Assembly (NCBI GenBank): GCA_019058445.1
Contig: JAHPZA010000009.1
Span: forward strand, 384,001 to 448,000
DNA: 64,000 nt
Reading direction: 5' to 3'
DNA from: Promethearchaeota archaeon
GTDB lineage: Archaea; Asgardarchaeota; Lokiarchaeia; Sigyniarchaeales; SOKP01
The notes beneath the pieces are model-generated. The model saw nothing but the letters and a program-made list of their open reading frames with translations. It was not told the DNA's origin and did not search any database. Both the position numbers and the translations under genes were made by a program. Positions 43,971 through 49,300 of the stretch are shown piece after piece; positions within the stretch are counted from its first letter, which is position 1; each line of letters begins with the position of its first letter.

Positions 43971-44184
43971 AATAAATCTAAATGATTTATTGAAAGTATT
44001 AAACCAATGTAATATAGTGATGTCTGGAGCGTGTATTCGAAAAAGATATTTACAAAATATCTAGAAAATATCTGAATATATTTTCTACAGAACATATATC
44101 TTTTTTAAAAAACTAAATTTAAATTAATTAAAGATATAATTTATTTTAATAAAATAAGCAAATAAGAAGGGTTGCTGCCTAGGC

Positions 44185-45141
44185 TTGGAAAATCTCTTTC
44201 GTACTCTATTAAAAAATTACATGAATGATGTGGATGGGGTAATTGCTATTGCCATATGTGATAGAGATGGATTCATTATCGCTTCTGAGGATAGAGCGGA
44301 ATTTAACAATGAACCTGTAATTGGAGTATTATCGGCAGTATTAGATACTTACATAGATAGAATTAAGGACGAATTTGGAACAACCAGTAATTTTATGAAT
44401 ATCACAACTACTGGAGATAAAAAATTTGCTTATTGCTCTATGGGACCAAACTCAATTTTAACTAGTATTGCAACACAAACTACTACCGATATTGAATTAA
44501 GAGTTTATTCAGAACATATTGCAAGTAAAATAGAGTTAATTATATCTGGAAACGATAAAGTATCCCTTGAAATACCAGAAATTATTAGAACGCTTTCGAA
44601 AGTAAAAGGGGGAAAATTGCCAACAGGAGATTATTCTACTAAACTAATTCTCTGTGGAGATTATATGGTTGGAAAAACTTCTCTCATTAAAAGATTTGTT
44701 GAGGATAAGTTTCAAGAGAGTTATCTCGCTACTTTAGGAGTAGAAATCTCTAAAAAATCGTTAGAATTAGCAGAAACCACAGATATTAATTTTATAATCT
44801 GGGATATCGCAGGACAAAGAACTCAGATGGAAGCATATAAAAGACGTTTTTATAGCGGAGCAAACTCCGCATTTATAGTATTAGATAGAACAAGAGAAGG
44901 TAATTTAAAGAGTATTGAATATTGGTATAAAGATATCAAACAAGCAGTGAGAGGCAATATCCCTATTGTAATTGTCGGAAATAAGTCGGATTTAGAAGAT
45001 AAAATTGTTATTTCTGAGAAAGAGATTAAAGAGATAACTGACAAGTTTGGATTTCACTACATACTGACATCTGCAAAAACAGGTGATAATGTAAATGATG
45101 CCTTTCTTTATATTGCTTACCGTTTTTTAGAAATGGTGTGA
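44185..45141 (+). CDS. Roadblock domain fused to Rab/Ras-like small GTPase
   Basis: N-terminal GVIAIAICDRDGFIIAS roadblock; GDYMVGKTS, TLG, WDIAGQ, GNKSD, TSAKTG. Confidence 0.9.
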   Translation: MENLFRTLLKNYMNDVDGVIAIAICDRDGFIIASEDRAEFNNEPVIGVLSAVLDTYIDRIKDEFGTTSNFMNITTTGDKKFAYCSMGPNSILTSIATQTTTDIELRVYSEHIASKIELIISGNDKVSLEIPEIIRTLSKVKGGKLPTGDYSTKLILCGDYMVGKTSLIKRFVEDKFQESYLATLGVEISKKSLELAETTDINFIIWDIAGQRTQMEAYKRRFYSGANSAFIVLDRTREGNLKSIEYWYKDIKQAVRGNIPIVIVGNKSDLEDKIVISEKEIKEITDKFGFHYILTSAKTGDNVNDAFLYIAYRFLEMV

Positions 45142-45260
45142 TTTTTGATTATGGTTTTAAATTAGAACACACTTCTTTATTAAATTTGTTTTATTAATTA
45201 AACTCAAATTGTTCAAAAAATTGGATTTAAAAATTAAAAAATTACAAGAGGTGGGAGTAA

Positions 45261-46190
45261 ATAGTCTTAACGGTTGCTTTCAATGATATACACGCTCAGT
45301 GAGACACTAGAGGCTATTTAATGGGATTTTCGATAAAAGAGATTACGTTCAAACAAAAATATCTTTTATACTTAACAGAACCAGAGCTGGCAGGTCCGTG
45401 GTTTAGTTTTAAATTAAAGGGAAAAAGGATAGGAACAATACCAGTTGTACTTAAAAATATTGAACCTACCCCGATATATCAGTTAGTAAATAGCAGAAAA
45501 GGTACAAAAATAGATCGTATTACATTAGATTTCGATATTAGGGAATATCTCAAAAAATTGATACGTGAAAATAAATTAAACCCCTTAAAATTTAAAGATG
45601 AAGAACATCTAATCCGATTATACATTGATGTTTTCTTGCGTAGAGGTCAAGCACCATACATGAATACATATTTTACCTTAAAAAATAATTCTGATTTTGA
45701 TTTAATTGACTTTTCTATGATTTTCATATTTGACTTTGATATCAACGGTCTAGAAGGTTTTGACAATGATTTATCTGGATATGATGAAGAGAATAACATA
45801 ATATATCAATATGATAAAACCGGTATTCATGCGGGTTTTTCTACAATTTCTAAACCAACTGGCTTTGAAACAAGCTTAACAAAAGATTTCCATTTAGGAA
45901 AGGGGAGATTAAATTTATCAAATACATTAAATGAAAGTGAAGGTGAAATTCTGTCAGCACTCCAAATTGAATTTAAAACTCTCGAACCAGAACATTCCTT
46001 TCAAACAGCCTTAACGATATCTGGGGGGTATAGTAGAGAAGAATTATTCGAAAATATCATTGAGGGACGGAGAGATGCTATGAAATATCTAAATCAAGTT
46101 TATAGATCTATCAGATCAGAACAGAGGAATAAACAAGAAGTAGCATTTATAAAATTGAACCTCCAAGAAGCTGAAGGGTGTAAAGATTGA
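45261..46190 (+). CDS. Candidate selenoprotein of unknown function (309 aa, Sec14); ORF track gives only 45321-46190
   Basis: GAGGTG SD (45248-53), ATA 45261, (M)VLTVAFNDIHAQ-TGA(45300-02)-DTRGYL-MGFSIKE... in frame; SECIS-like element right after stop. The 45321-46190 part is a solid ORF regardless. Confidence 0.65.
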
Positions 46191-46272
46191 TAAATCCATT
46201 TTAATGATTCAAATAAAAAAGCCGTTAATGGAAAGTTATTTGAGGAGAGCCTTGTGTTGGTTAGGATTTATT
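46189..46272 (+). promoter_or_regulatory. Eukaryote-type SECIS-like element
   Basis: Helix I TAAATCC(46191-97)/GGATTTA(46264-70); ATGA 46204-07; helix II TTCAAATAA/TTATTTGAG; unpaired AAAA 46217-20; GA 46245-46; fits ATGA-N11-AA-N24-GA. Confidence 0.7.
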
Positions 46273-46336
46273 ATAAAAACTATTATATGAGTATAGTAAT
46301 AAAAAATAAAATTAAGAAATTAAAAAAATATTTAAA

Positions 46337-49300
46337 TTATTCTTCTGAATTTTGTTTTGCTTTTAAGGTAAGATAGGTATCTTCAAGGATATTCAGATAT
46401 TCAATTAAAACATTATCGCTTTTAGATTTTTGGTCATATCCATTCTTAATAATTTTCAAAAGGTACTTCGGGAATATGAGATCCAAGTTAAAATCTGAAA
46501 GGAGAGCATAATATTCTGTACTGTTTTTATCTTGAAGGACGGAGATCAAATTCGCTTGCCATAGCTGTTTTAATACTAAGTTAATATCTGTAACACCTTT
46601 CTTTTTAAGCTTCTCTAGTTCGTTTCTAGTGACAATCGCGGTTCTTAATAATCGGAGTGTTTCATAAACTTGGGGATTACCTATAGTCTCAATTACTTTA
46701 ATATTATCTTCTTTAGATGGATGATAAGTTTGGAAGAATTTACTGATCTCATTAGAATATGCCTTTGCAAGCTGTGGTGGTAAACCATGAGCTTCAGGCT
46801 TTTTTAGTAATTCTATTGGAGGAACTCTGATCATATAAATATCATTGATTAAAAAGACCAATTCTGAAGGGAGTCCTTTAATCGAACTTTCTTTGACAAT
46901 CTCCATTTTTACGAGCTCTGCCAGAATATTTGCTAAATCAAAAAACCCTTCTTTGTATTTATCTTTAAGCCAGACCATTAGTTCTGATTTGGAAATAACG
47001 CCTTCTTCTCTAAGCCGATTTATAATCATCCGTTTGATTTCATCTTGATAAATATATGCAATTCGTCCTTCGGCGGTTAGGTTTGGGAACATAGCCAATC
47101 TCTGAAAGAGCGAAGAAATAATATGTAAATAAGAATCATCCTCTAAATTCTGTAAGATAATTCGTAAAATATCTGCCATTGCATCCTCATAAAGATCAGG
47201 ATCATCATCTAAATTTAACACTAAGACAAGGTAATAACCTTTTTCAGCTCCAGTATAGTATGATAAGATATTTGAATTGCCAGCCATTAAATTTACTGCC
47301 CCTGATTCTCCTGTATATTCATGAGTCCCATAGATTTGCATTAATGTCTTTTTAGTAATTTCAATTCCTTCTGGGTATTGAACTACAATTTCAGTACCAA
47401 CTCTTTCATTCCATCTCATAAGAATTAATCCCTTTGGTATAAGATCACTGCTTCTTTTTGTAGCAATGAGTTTTTGCTTTACTTTTAGTACTTCTTCAAC
47501 TTTTTGGATTTTTGTCCCCAGCATAGCTTCCAAAGAAACTCCAATTGTCTGCCATTTATCTTTTACTAAATGGGCCATATACATCTCTTTCGAAGGATAT
47601 AATAGCGAGGTATTGATATCGTCATTATTTTTAATTAATTTTTTCATCGATCTAAGTTTTTTAACAAATTCCGGGATCTTCATCAATTGAATATATTTAT
47701 AGGTCCCAAGACTACCTACGATTGCACCAATAGCCGCAATGAGCAATAGAAGATAAAAAATGGGTATGCTTACTACTCCAGGAATTACTTCGATCTCTTC
47801 CATTTCGATTACAATTGTAATATCAGTGTCTTCTGAAGTGTAATTCGCTTTTGAGATTTTAATAGTTCCAGTAATGGTGTTTGAGGTAAAGAACGCTTCA
47901 TAATCATCAGTTTCAAATTCCACTTCATACACTCCATCCTCAACCTCTTCAAACTCAAGCTCATCATCACCAATCTCTAAAATAACCGTTGCGTCCTTTA
48001 ATGGAATATCTCCCTTGGTTGGATCGGTTAATTCTATTGAAAGTGTAATTGTTTCTCCTTTCACTACACTGGTTTGTTTATCTTCAAACATATCTCCAAG
48101 ATCATACTCGATCTCTCTCTCATTAATAGTTAGAAATATGATTGCCTGTTTCGACTCGTAATTCTGTTTATCTAAAGTAACCCATACCGTATATCTTCCA
48201 ACTGCCATTAATTCAGTATTAATATCTAAAACATATTCACTGTCAGAATTAACATATAAATCTCCAGTTCCATATAAAACTGATTGACCTGCTCTTATTT
48301 CTGTCATTGAATAACTTTGTGTTTCCAAATCGATTATATTGGTAAGATATTGTTCATCAATATAGGAAAAAGTAAAATTTAATTCATCTTGGACATATAT
48401 AACTGGATATAAATCAACATTAATTGATGAATCGCTAATTAATGTCAATCGTTCTTGCACCTCTATCTCCAAATCTTTTGAAATATCCGAGATATAATGT
48501 TCTTTAATTACCTCAAACCGAATGGTATAATCACCGGCATTAATTAAGGAAGTATTTATAGTTTGCTGATAAAATCCTAAATTCTCATAATATTGAACGG
48601 TTCCGGATATATCAGGGGCTTCTCTTATAACATAAGTAACTAATCCAGTAGTTTCATAGAAAACAGTTCTTGAATAACTTATCCTAAAAGAAAGTGTAAA
48701 ATTTACGAGTTGGTTCGTTTCTATAGAAGCTGAATATATTAAATTCTTGTAAATCTTTGCTAGCGAAAATGTCCCTTCTCCTTGAAGAGTATCTGAAATG
48801 CTATACGTTTGCCCTCCAATTGTGATATTCATTGCTAACTCTGATGGAAAAAAATAGTGACTTCCATTGTTTATTTTACTAATCAATAATTCTGTACCTT
48901 GATCGTCAAAATTACTGGTGAAAACAATATTGAATTCTCCTCCATTAGGCAAATCTTGCTTGGATATAGTTGTACTAATATTTTCTAAATGTTGATTCCA
49001 GTAAAATCCTTGATAATATTCAACTGTAATATTGACATCAAACATGATATCTGAAATATTAATAATATCAAAAAAGAATTTATCATCAATTGGATATATC
49101 GTTATATTGTCAATAGTTAAGCCTGCATTTCCATTACCAAGGTATTCTAATGTAAAATTATAACCCTCATTAGTAGTAATTTTTGATATTGCTATAGTTG
49201 GATTAGATATAGGACTCCAATCTGAAGTATTAAAGCAATTATAAATTTCAAAAGTTATGTTTTTAATTATCCAGCCATTAACACATGATAAAATGTTTAT

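What the first reader, a model, noticed from the sequence alone, without database searches (positions are those of the whole stretch)
45248..46272. Candidate new Asgard selenoprotein: in-frame UGA at codon 14 plus a 3'-UTR eukaryote-type SECIS
Seen: the annotated 289-aa ORF extends 20 codons upstream in frame to an ATA at 45261, 7 nt after a strong GAGGTG SD. The only interruption is one TGA (45300-02) in the context H-A-Q-*-D-T-R-G. Immediately after the stop lies a stem-loop with the eukaryotic SECIS hallmarks. Established: Lokiarchaeota encode Sec machinery and use eukaryote-like 3'-UTR SECIS elements; the selenoproteins I know from them are SelD/SPS, HdrA, VhuD/VhuU and Prx-like types. Inference: this protein resembles none of these (no thioredoxin-fold or Fe-S motifs visible), so it may be an undescribed selenoprotein family hidden by both a non-AUG start and UGA recoding.
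Basis: partly seen in the sequence, partly recalled or inferred. Interest (0 to 1): 0.93.

Follow-up and report, generated by a model that had tools for sequence, protein, structure and literature searches.

The report
Hidden new selenoprotein family in Lokiarchaeia
A gene that public databases call a 289-residue hypothetical protein really begins 20 codons earlier at a rare AUA start and reads an in-frame UGA as selenocysteine with the help of a conserved 3'-UTR SECIS, which defines a selenoprotein family of Asgard (Lokiarchaeial) archaea that published surveys have not listed.

Summary
AUA 45261, UGA 45300-45302, AUG 45321 and the stop at 46188-46190 are in one frame.

- **UGA conservation:** the UGA is invariant in 23 of 23 homologous loci of the same taxonomic family. 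Both flanks show third-position wobble typical of coding sequence.
- **Start upstream of the UGA:** one homologue has no internal AUG. Others start at AUG or GUG upstream of the UGA.
- **Sec/Cys pairing:** in a sister family that includes cultured Promethearchaeum syntrophicum, the protein starts at AUG and has Cys of a CxxC motif at this position. Two further families have CxxU.
- **SECIS:** the 3' UTR (46189-46276) has an AUGA...AAAA...GA stem-loop with a mini-stem and a side hairpin. Pairs covary. A model trained only on SelD SECIS elements finds it in 21 of 23 UGA loci and in no Cys locus.
- **Sec machinery:** the genome encodes Sec-SelD, a PSTK-like protein, SepSecS, EFSec and an intron-bearing tRNA-Sec.
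- **Fold:** the predicted structure is a beta-supersandwich like the N-domains of GH15 and GH94 enzymes, not a thioredoxin fold.
- **Conserved features:** Sec14 and C-terminal Cys307 are invariant. A Roadblock-Ras GTPase gene is the conserved upstream neighbour.

Function is unknown, and selenium incorporation has not been shown experimentally.

The parts
44185..45141 (+). Roadblock/LC7-Ras-like small GTPase gene, the conserved upstream neighbour on the same strand
   Evidence: Pfam Ras 131.8 bits, Roc, Gtr1_RagA 27.5 bits, weak Robl_LC7/MAPKK1_Int at the N-terminus. An orthologue lies directly upstream in 19/20 close loci. It is also upstream in G012, G013 and G016 and in four Cys-form genomes including MK-D1.
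45248..45253 (+). Shine-Dalgarno-like GAGGTG, 7 nt before the AUA
   Evidence: Read directly. GGAGGT or GAGGTG stands 7-11 nt before the start position in nearly all homologues.
45261..45263 (+). Proposed non-canonical AUA start codon
   Evidence: An in-frame TAA lies directly upstream, and there is no ATG/GTG/TTG before the TGA. ATA is at this position in 17/23 homologues and one codon away in 2. The position holds ATC in L025, GTG in L033 and ATG in L026. Initiation itself is inferred.
45261..46190 (+). Full coding sequence: 309 codons plus stop
   Evidence: Continuous coding conservation across the TGA. The AlphaFold2 model of the 309-aa form has pLDDT 90.9 and pTM 0.90, with residues 3-22 forming strands.
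45300..45302 (+). UGA codon 14, read as selenocysteine
   Evidence: Invariant TGA in 23/23 same-family loci. It aligns with Cys of CxxC in 7 loci and 38 of 41 database proteins, and with U of CxxU in 4 loci of two other families.
45321..45323 (+). Internal AUG used as the start by gene callers (289-aa annotation)
   Evidence: All 120 listed database homologues begin MGFSI or MGFSV. L033 has TTC (Phe) at this position.
46179..46181 (+). Codon of invariant C-terminal Cys307
   Evidence: C307 is invariant in 31/31 aligned full-length proteins. A Cys lies within the last 5 residues in 40/41 Cys-form database proteins.
46188..46190 (+). Stop codon UGA, followed by UAA
   Evidence: Homologues end at the same position with TAA (16), TAG (2) or TGA (5), so it is a stop and not a second Sec codon.
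46189..46276 (+). 3'-UTR SECIS of lokiSECIS type II. Helix I 46192-97/46264-69; AUGA 46204-07; helix II 46209-16/46236-43; A-run 46217-20; mini-stem 46221-31; GA 46245-46; side hairpin 46248-62.
   Evidence: Family model R1 scores 83 bits here and 59-92 bits in all 23 UGA loci. 84% of cells are paired against 30-50% when slid, 13/21 pairs show double changes, and 0/500 shuffles reach this. The SelD-only model R2 places its top hit of the window here, 16.6 bits, E 0.04.
62872..62999 (+). Decayed duplicate of the gene's last ~35 nt plus the SECIS; not functional
   Evidence: 71% identity over 128 nt to 46153-46279. R1 scores 29.7 bits, E 0.1. The AUGA core reads AUAGA.

Best explanation
This is a real selenoprotein gene that annotation has hidden. 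The mRNA carries a 309-codon reading frame (45261-46190). Translation starts at an AUA placed 7 nt behind a Shine-Dalgarno sequence. UGA codon 14 is decoded as selenocysteine by tRNA-Sec and EFSec, guided by a eukaryote-like SECIS in the 3' UTR (46189-46276). That SECIS is of the mini-stem type also found behind selD in the same genome. The product is a cytoplasmic stand-alone beta-supersandwich protein of about 35 kDa. Its Sec sits in an N-terminal beta-hairpin at the second position of an ancestral CxxC/CxxU motif. The only other invariant thiol is Cys307 on the C-terminal tail. My inferred mechanism is that Sec14 is a redox-active selenol that cycles with Cys307 (or with Cys11 in lineages that keep CxxU) through a selenenylsulfide. 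The protein would then act as an oxidoreductase or redox sensor. It probably works together with the Roadblock-Ras GTPase encoded directly upstream. Shown here: the conserved recoded frame, the Sec/Cys pairing, the SECIS, the Sec machinery, the predicted fold and the synteny. Inferred: AUA initiation, the redox pair and the link to the GTPase.
For: (1) TGA is invariant in 23/23 distinct same-family loci, while neighbouring third positions vary. Entropy by codon position is 0.74/0.54/1.46 before the TGA and 0.80/0.39/1.29 after it.
(2) L033 lacks the internal ATG and has GTG upstream. L026 has ATG upstream. In L011, L013, L017 and L018 an in-frame stop directly precedes ATA.
(3) In the sister family, 7 loci and 38 of 41 database proteins start at ATG and have CxxC with Cys at the Sec column; these include P. 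syntrophicum DSAG12_02345. Loci of two other families have CxxU, two of them with an ATG start.
(4) The SECIS is conserved in 23/23 UGA loci with covariation. It has the published lokiSECIS features: AUGA, a stem of about 9 bp, an A-rich loop start, a final loop AG, and GA (PMC4989117). The selD SECIS of the same genome shares its architecture, including the side hairpin. Model R2, built from selD 3' UTRs only, ranks it first in the 64-kb window and hits 20 of 22 other UGA loci. It hits no Cys-form 3' UTR.
(5) Sec machinery is present. SelD has a G-U-S-C-K site. A PSTK-like protein scores 149 bits and SepSecS 380 bits. EFSec carries the aSelB_III domain. tRNA-Sec has a UCA anticodon, a 9-bp acceptor stem and two introns, and lies 2.2 kb from SepSecS.
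(6) The 309-aa form models with pLDDT 90.9. Structural matches reach Z 18-20 to GH15, GH94 and GH116 N-terminal supersandwich domains.
(7) U/C14 and C307 are the only invariant Cys-type columns.
(8) The GTPase gene lies upstream in 26 of 30 loci checked, across two taxonomic families.
Against: There is no experimental evidence of selenium insertion, and no RNA run holds the locus.

Rfam has no SECIS hit here even at E up to 10. The published Loki elements were also missed by standard tools (PMC4989117).

R2's score on the window's own element is low (16.6 bits, E about 0.04 with rough calibration).

AUA initiation is unproven and rare.

The CxxU loci of the more distant family f4 show only a different conserved hairpin behind the stop. 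They have no match to my descriptor or to R1.

In this genus the first Cys of the motif is replaced (H/F-x-x-U).

Residues 11-20 and 301-309 have pLDDT of only about 63, and I could not measure the Sec14-Cys307 distance.

The functional reading rests on invariance and synteny alone.

Mariotti et al. 2016 looked for novel families in Lokiarchaeum and reported none.
Confidence: 0.88

Rival explanations
1. The UGA is a true stop. The 13 codons from AUA form a conserved upstream leader ORF, and the protein is made separately from the AUG at 45321 by re-initiation, as annotated.
For: The AUG at 45321 has its own AGAGG 7 nt upstream and is conserved in 22/23 same-family loci. All database entries are called this way.
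Against: The six codons between the UGA and the AUG are conserved as protein, in frame, with third-position wobble. L033 has no AUG there. The Cys forms are one continuous ATG-initiated ORF with Cys at the UGA column. A leader ORF does not explain a conserved SECIS. Residues 3-22 form strands of the modelled sandwich.
Confidence: 0.05
2. Both products are made. A Sec-containing 309-aa form starts at the weak AUA start, and an abundant Sec-less 289-aa form starts at the internal AUG. The ratio is set by selenium supply.
For: A weak start codon is followed 60 nt later by a strong AUG with its own SD-like motif, in 22/23 loci. This is compatible with all evidence for Sec decoding.
Against: The short form would lack two strands of the sandwich and the invariant Sec. 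L033 and all Cys forms have no such second start. The Met may simply be a conserved residue.
Confidence: 0.15
3. The UGA is read through, but not as Sec (near-cognate Trp, Cys or Arg). The 3' element is a terminator or an mRNA-stability element rather than a SECIS.
For: No Rfam SECIS hit. The element sits between convergent genes, where a terminator would also lie.
Against: The element has the AUGA/GA core and A-run and is recognised by a model trained on selD SECIS elements. The aligned residue in homologues is Cys within CxxC. The same element type follows VhuU, PrxL and SelD in this genome. It is absent behind the Cys copies.
Confidence: 0.03
4. It is a sequencing or assembly error, or a nonsense mutation in a decaying gene.
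For: None beyond the single TGA itself.
Against: The same TGA is present in 23 independently assembled genomes and in further metagenome runs. The gene is under clear purifying selection.
Confidence: 0.01

Closest known systems
Lokiarchaeial selD/SPS selenoprotein gene with its type II 'lokiSECIS' (Mariotti et al. 2016, PMC4989117; Huang et al. 2024, PMC11227280)
   Same: It has a single in-frame UGA near the N-terminus and a 3'-UTR SECIS starting within about 15 nt of the stop. The SECIS has an AUGA core, a stem of about 8 bp, an A-rich entry, an apical mini-stem and a GA. In this genome it also has a side hairpin with a UGCG-type loop between the GA and helix I. A selD-only covariance model finds the new element.
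   Different: The protein is unrelated. Helix II is almost invariant in sequence within the new family. The family-specific model R1 does not hit the selD SECIS.
Known Asgard selenoprotein families: VhuU/FrhA, HdrA, VhuD/FrhD, Prx-like, AhpF-N-like, DsbA-like
   Same: It uses the same recoding system in the same genomes. As in Prx-like and DsbA-like proteins, Sec replaces a Cys of a CxxC-type motif.
   Different: There is no sequence match to any of them (no Pfam or NCBIfam hit). The fold is a beta-supersandwich, neither thioredoxin-like nor Fe-S. Those families were all found by homology to known selenoproteins (PMC11227280 methods), which could not find this one.
Eukaryotic SelW/Rdx-type selenoproteins (from my own knowledge)
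   Same: A CxxU motif lies about 10-14 residues from the N-terminus, and the SECIS is in the 3' UTR far from the UGA.
   Different: Rdx proteins are small thioredoxin-like folds. Here the motif lies in a beta-hairpin of a 300-residue supersandwich, and the partner thiol appears to be a C-terminal Cys.
N-terminal beta-supersandwich domain of GH15 glucoamylase/glucodextranase, GH94 phosphorylases, GH116 and cyclic beta-1,2-glucan synthase (1lf6, 1ulv, 8bou, 7w2t, 8rf9)
   Same: The predicted fold matches at Z 18-20, rmsd 2.4-3.0 A over 213-237 residues.
   Different: There is no attached (alpha/alpha)6 catalytic barrel. Sequence identity is 10-16%. The Pfam models for these domains do not match. 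None of those domains is known to me to carry Sec or a CxxC hairpin.
Selenoproteins found by truncated-annotation logic (Haft-type searches; bioRxiv 10.1101/2022.07.06.499078)
   Same: Database entries are truncated at a UGA that aligns with Cys in full-length homologues.
   Different: Those cases are bacterial and use in-ORF bacterial SECIS elements. Here the truncation is N-terminal, is compounded by a non-AUG start, and the SECIS is eukaryote-like.

Membership tests
Selenoprotein gene (Sec-decoded UGA) | In-frame UGA conserved among orthologues, with coding conservation on both sides | tested here: met
   TGA in 23/23 loci. Entropy by codon position is 0.74/0.54/1.46 upstream and 0.80/0.39/1.29 downstream.
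Selenoprotein gene (Sec-decoded UGA) | Homologues with Cys aligned to the UGA | tested here: met
   7 loci and 38 of 41 database proteins have CxxC with Cys in the Sec column. The column is invariant U/C in 31 sequences.
Selenoprotein gene (Sec-decoded UGA) | SECIS element on the mRNA, present with UGA and absent with Cys | tested here: met
   R1 hits 23/23 UGA loci of the family and 0/7 Cys loci. The loose descriptor gives 0 hits in 420 nt behind each of the 7 Cys genes. R2 (selD-trained) hits 21/23 UGA loci. Caveat: three CxxU loci of family f4 have no recognisable element of this type.
Selenoprotein gene (Sec-decoded UGA) | Complete Sec machinery in the genome | tested here: met
   SelD(U), PSTK-like, SepSecS, EFSec (aSelB_III) and tRNA-Sec(UCA) are all present. 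PSTK is below the NCBIfam cut-off (149 vs 290 bits). tRNA-Sec is below the Rfam cut-off because of two introns.
Selenoprotein gene (Sec-decoded UGA) | Selenium shown in the protein (75Se label or MS peptide) | not testable with these tools
   No RNA or proteome data; no RNA holder is listed.
lokiSECIS / eukaryote-like SECIS | AUGA before the stem, a stem of about 9 bp, A-rich first loop positions, last loop nucleotide G preceded by A, GA after the stem, placed just behind the stop (PMC4989117) | tested here: met
   All features are read at 46204-46246 and in the 23-sequence alignment. The mini-stem variant matches the SPS type.
lokiSECIS / eukaryote-like SECIS | Conserved secondary structure supported by compensatory changes | tested here: met
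   13 of 21 pairs show double changes, 84% of cells are paired against at most 50% in slid controls, and 0/500 shuffles reach this. The alignment was fitted to the model, which favours the structure.
Rfam SECIS_1 (RF00031) and other Rfam SECIS families | Match to the covariance model | tested here: not met
   No SECIS family is listed at E up to 10 over 44000-47500. I therefore do not file it under the eukaryotic Rfam family.
GH15_N / GH94 beta-supersandwich domain families (Pfam PF09137, PF06165) | Sequence match to the Pfam model | tested here: not met
   No Pfam family at E up to 1. The likeness is at fold level only (Z 18-20; atlas lead 0.81).
Thioredoxin-fold redox selenoproteins | Thioredoxin fold with CxxC/CxxU at a helix N-terminus | tested here: not met
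   The model is nearly all beta, with Sec at the end of strand 11-14. The best structural matches are supersandwich domains.

The most novel reading that the evidence does not exclude
An Asgard-specific selenoprotein with a sugar-enzyme-like supersandwich fold serves as the redox- or selenium-sensing partner of a Roadblock-Ras (Rag-like) GTPase. Its synthesis would be throttled by a conserved AUA start codon. [quoted passage not shown] It would also be one of at least three lineage-specific selenoprotein families that homology-based surveys have missed.
Probability: 0.15. Interest if true: 0.9.

Novelty: new member of a known kind. Interest (0 to 1): 0.78.

Why it matters
Published Asgard selenoproteomes hold seven families, all found by homology to selenoproteins known elsewhere (PMC11227280, PMC13188914). 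This family is lineage-specific and has no known domain. Its fold has not, to my knowledge, been seen in a selenoprotein. Its in-frame UGA together with a non-AUG start hides the N-terminus from gene callers. It therefore shows that the Asgard selenoproteome is under-counted. The same scan turned up two more conserved UGA-containing ORFs with a SECIS in this genome.

The family supplies 23 new SECIS examples of the mini-stem type, with a side hairpin shared with selD. That is useful for models of how the eukaryotic SECIS arose.

The Cys form exists in cultured Promethearchaeum syntrophicum, so function and the link to the neighbouring small GTPase can be tested at the bench. The conserved AUA start would, if confirmed, be a rare documented case of near-cognate initiation in archaea.

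Tried and rejected
- **Rfam scan** of 44000-47500 at E up to 10: no SECIS family, only chance-level snoRNA and CRISPR hits.
- **RNAalifold on the raw MAFFT alignment:** recovered only the invariant helix II. The structure had to be set by hand.
- **Family model R1:** too sequence-specific to find other SECIS elements. It gave no hit on selD.
- **Mixed selD 3' UTRs:** mixing the two selD subtypes gave no consensus. Only the 10 mini-stem ones were used.
- **tRNA-Sec:** not found at the default threshold. ARAGORN on the whole genome gave almost nothing. Its 'tRNA-SeC' call at C1:27020 is more likely tRNA-Ser(UGA) with an intron.
- **Complex prediction, rerun:** with database sequences and the 289-aa form it gave 'no answer', score 0.00. 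That is no evidence either way.
- **The protein-atlas search:** The Cys form gave only hypothetical-protein clusters and a sub-threshold GH94 lead.
- **Fold search 'atlas':** failed twice.
- **Sequencing runs:** no RNA holder is listed.
- **Profile search of 1.84 billion representatives:** found no fused or annotated full-length relative. It gave only weak matches of profile positions 126-275 to an un-annotated region of large secreted proteins.
- **C/D-box guide idea from another note:** the 10-nt complement at 44027-44036 exists. It is not kept in the closest relative, which has the same target sequence. I rejected it as a conserved feature.
- **Cys forms as a sign of a lost Sec trait:** rejected, because SepSecS is present in 40 of 41 relatives, including Cys-form genomes.
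Full report
**The observation**

The window is G000:C9:384001-448000 of a 4.6-Mb, 31% G+C genome (92.6% complete) from a sediment metagenome. The stated features are all present:
- GAGGTG at 45248-45253.
- An in-frame TAA at 45258-45260.
- ATA at 45261.
- TGA at 45300-45302 as codon 14, in H-A-Q-*-D-T-R-G.
- ATG at 45321.
- The stop TGA at 46188-46190.

No ATG, GTG or TTG lies between the TAA and the TGA. Behind the stop lies AUGA (46204-07) and an 8-bp helix (46209-16 with 46236-43). The apical part starts AAAA, holds a mini-stem and ends AAAG. Then come G-GA (46244-46), a side hairpin (46248-62) and an outer helix AAAUCC/GGAUUU (46192-97 with 46264-69). The stretch folds better than shuffles, z = -2.3.

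**Is the extension coding?**

The protein has hundreds of close homologues, all called as 285-292 residues from MGFSI/V and all named hypothetical. I fetched 20 homologous loci from related genomes, then three more of the same taxonomic family, and read them upstream.
- In 23 of 23 distinct sequences a TGA stands seven codons before the position of the Met.
- The peptide on both sides is conserved: (I)VLKVxFNxIxAx-U-NxxGYL-MGFS.
- Column entropy by codon position is 0.74/0.54/1.46 before the TGA and 0.80/0.39/1.29 after it. That is the pattern of coding sequence.
- The TGA itself never varies.
- L033, the most distant member of the family, has Phe where the others have the internal Met, and it has GTG near the start position.
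- L026 has an ATG start upstream.
- In four loci, including this one, a stop codon directly precedes the ATA.
- The position behind the Shine-Dalgarno motif holds ATA in 17 loci (one codon off in two more), ATC in one, GTG in one and ATG in one.

So the frame is translated from upstream of the TGA. In most members the only plausible start is AUA. The initiation event itself is inferred.

**Sec/Cys pairs**

More distant homologues (22-30% identity) from three other families of the same order settle the meaning of the codon.
- **Family f2:** seven loci start at ATG and read, for example, M-D-I-F-I-D-Y-E-T-I-C-I-N-C-Q-E-K-G-Y, with the second Cys in the column of the TGA.
- **Database proteins of this type:** 38 of 41 show the CxxC pattern, and 40 of 41 end with a Cys in the last few residues. 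One is DSAG12_02345 of cultured Promethearchaeum syntrophicum.
- **Families f3 and f4:** four loci read C-x-x-U, two of them with a clear ATG start.

In the 31-sequence alignment the Sec/Cys column and a C-terminal Cys (C307 here) are the only invariant Cys-type positions. They stand beside a set of invariant polar residues: N77, R86, T88, D123, N142, D158, D160, D170, Q183, N265 and R289.

The Cys forms are not a consequence of losing the Sec trait. SepSecS is found in 40 of 41 related genomes, including Cys-form ones.

**The SECIS**

The 3'-UTR element is present in all 23 UGA loci. The AUGA, helix II and GA are nearly invariant. L033 carries a compensated A-U to U-A change inside helix II. 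The mini-stem, the side hairpin and helix I vary with compensation.

On a model-fitted alignment, 84% of cells pair against 30-50% when partners are slid. 13 of 21 pairs have changes on both sides, and no shuffle in 500 reaches the observed values. The fitted alignment favours the structure somewhat.

The features match the published lokiSECIS, and the mini-stem matches its SPS variant (PMC4989117, read; PMC11227280).

I made two tests that are independent of this gene family.
- **Descriptor scan.** A descriptor written from the literature finds 8 places in the whole genome against about 2.3 in simulated genomes. Those 8 include the elements behind VhuU (D-C-U-L-S-C-A-A-H), Prx-like (W-U-V-Y-U) and SelD (G-U-S-C-K), and this one.
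- **selD-trained model.** A covariance model built only from ten selD 3' UTRs of related genomes ranks 46193-46275 first in the 64-kb window with filters off (16.6 bits, E about 0.04). It hits the same element in 20 of 22 other UGA loci at 13-27 bits. There are only four other hits, none in a Cys-form 3' UTR.

The selD SECIS of this genome shares even the side hairpin with a UGCG-type loop. Behind the seven Cys genes a loose descriptor finds nothing in 420 nt.

Rfam's SECIS families do not match. The same was reported for all Loki elements.

**Sec machinery**
- SelD has one in-frame TGA.
- A PSTK-like protein scores 149 bits, below the curated cut-off.
- SepSecS scores 380 bits.
- EFSec scores 242 bits for selB and carries the archaeal SelB domain III.
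- A tRNA-Sec gene lies at C6:1059763-1059917. It has anticodon UCA, a 9-bp acceptor stem, a G discriminator, a long variable arm, and apparent introns in the D and T loops.

After in-silico removal of the introns, ARAGORN calls the gene tRNA-SeC in 150 of 176 splice variants. The T-loop intron and the EFSec gene a few kb away on the other strand match the published Loki arrangement.

**What the protein is**

No Pfam or NCBIfam family matches. AlphaFold2 on the 31-sequence alignment gives pLDDT 90.9 and pTM 0.90. The model is nearly all beta with C-terminal helices, and residues 3-22 form three strands.

An exhaustive structural search gives Z 18-20 (rmsd 2.4-3.0 A over 213-237 residues). The matches are the N-terminal beta-supersandwich domains of bacterial glucoamylase and glucodextranase, GH94 phosphorylases, GH116 and cyclic glucan synthase. 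Galactose mutarotases score Z 12-13. No catalytic barrel is attached.

A profile search of 1.84 billion representatives finds only 18 strong full-length relatives. It also finds weak matches of the central 150 residues to an un-annotated region of large secreted proteins.

The fold therefore says 'sugar-enzyme accessory domain'. The invariant Sec/Cys14 and Cys307 say 'redox or metal site'. I take a selenenylsulfide-forming pair as the most likely chemistry, at perhaps one chance in three. I could not measure the distance in the model, and both segments have pLDDT near 63.

**Neighbourhood**

A gene for a Roadblock-Ras-like small GTPase (Ras 132 bits, Gtr1/RagA 27.5 bits) lies directly upstream on the same strand.
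- It is there in 19 of 20 close loci.
- It is there in three further same-family genomes.
- It is there in four Cys-form genomes, including MK-D1, although the two protein forms share only about 25% identity.
- It was not found upstream in three f4 loci.

This synteny is the only functional lead. A complex prediction gave no answer and is not used as evidence.

**Comparison with what is known, and verdict**

Surveys of Asgard selenoproteins list SelD, VhuU/FrhA, HdrA, VhuD/FrhD, Prx-like, AhpF-N-like and DsbA-like proteins. All were found by homology to known families. Searches of the held literature found no description of this family.

The recoding mechanism is the known one. The protein family, its fold, the conserved AUA start and the GTPase linkage are new. 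I rate it a new member (a new family) of a known kind, with high confidence that it is a selenoprotein gene and low confidence about its function.

Noticed in passing
G000:C6:633575-634042 (+), outside the window; locus L063:276-743: An unannotated 156-codon ORF has two adjacent in-frame TGAs (…D-V-G-C-U-U-E-A-V-Q…). A textbook type I lokiSECIS (8-bp stem, 11-nt loop AAAAA..AG, U-GA) starts 15 nt behind its stop. Both TGAs are kept in about 28 homologous places across four taxonomic families. It has no Pfam match. It is a likely second unlisted selenoprotein family.
   Followed up: partly
G000:C10:79305-79694 (-), outside the window; locus L064:156-545; paralogue at C10:78342-78695: A 130-codon ORF has one in-frame TGA (…Y-Y-S-G-G-S-U-T-M-A-F-C-G…) and a SECIS-like element 10 nt behind its stop. 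The TGA is kept in 13 homologous places of the same taxonomic family. It has no Pfam match above threshold. It is a possible third unlisted family.
   Followed up: partly
window 62872-62999 (+): A decayed copy of the last ~35 nt of the selenoprotein gene plus its SECIS (71% identity over 128 nt), with the AUGA core broken to AUAGA. It lies beside the third giant paralogue. It was probably carried along when the giant-gene flank was duplicated, and it shows how the element decays without a selenoprotein gene.
   Followed up: partly
G000:C6:1056455-1065491: A Sec gene cluster: SepSecS (-), then tRNA-Sec 2.2 kb away (-), then EFSec about 4 kb further on the other strand. The tRNA-Sec appears to carry two introns (D loop about 36 nt, T loop about 31 nt), one more than described for Lokiarchaeum.
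   Followed up: partly
loci L034, L037, L043 (family f4), directly behind the stop codon: The CxxU homologues of a more distant, G+C-richer family carry a conserved hairpin (CCCAAG-UNGCC-CUUGGG) starting about 15 nt after the stop. It has no A-run and no clear AUGA/GA core. It may be a different SECIS form.
   Followed up: no
window 44027-44036 (-) and 45288-45297 (+): An exact 10-nt complement to the sequence just before the Sec codon exists 1.2 kb upstream (expected 0.01 by chance for this word). The closest relative has the same target but not the complement, so it is not a conserved pairing.
   Followed up: yes
selD 3' UTRs, loci L077, L080, L086, L088, L089 versus L003, L075, L083: Within one genus, selD carries two different SECIS subtypes: an 11-nt-loop type I form and a mini-stem type II form. 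Both have the same side hairpin before helix I.
   Followed up: no
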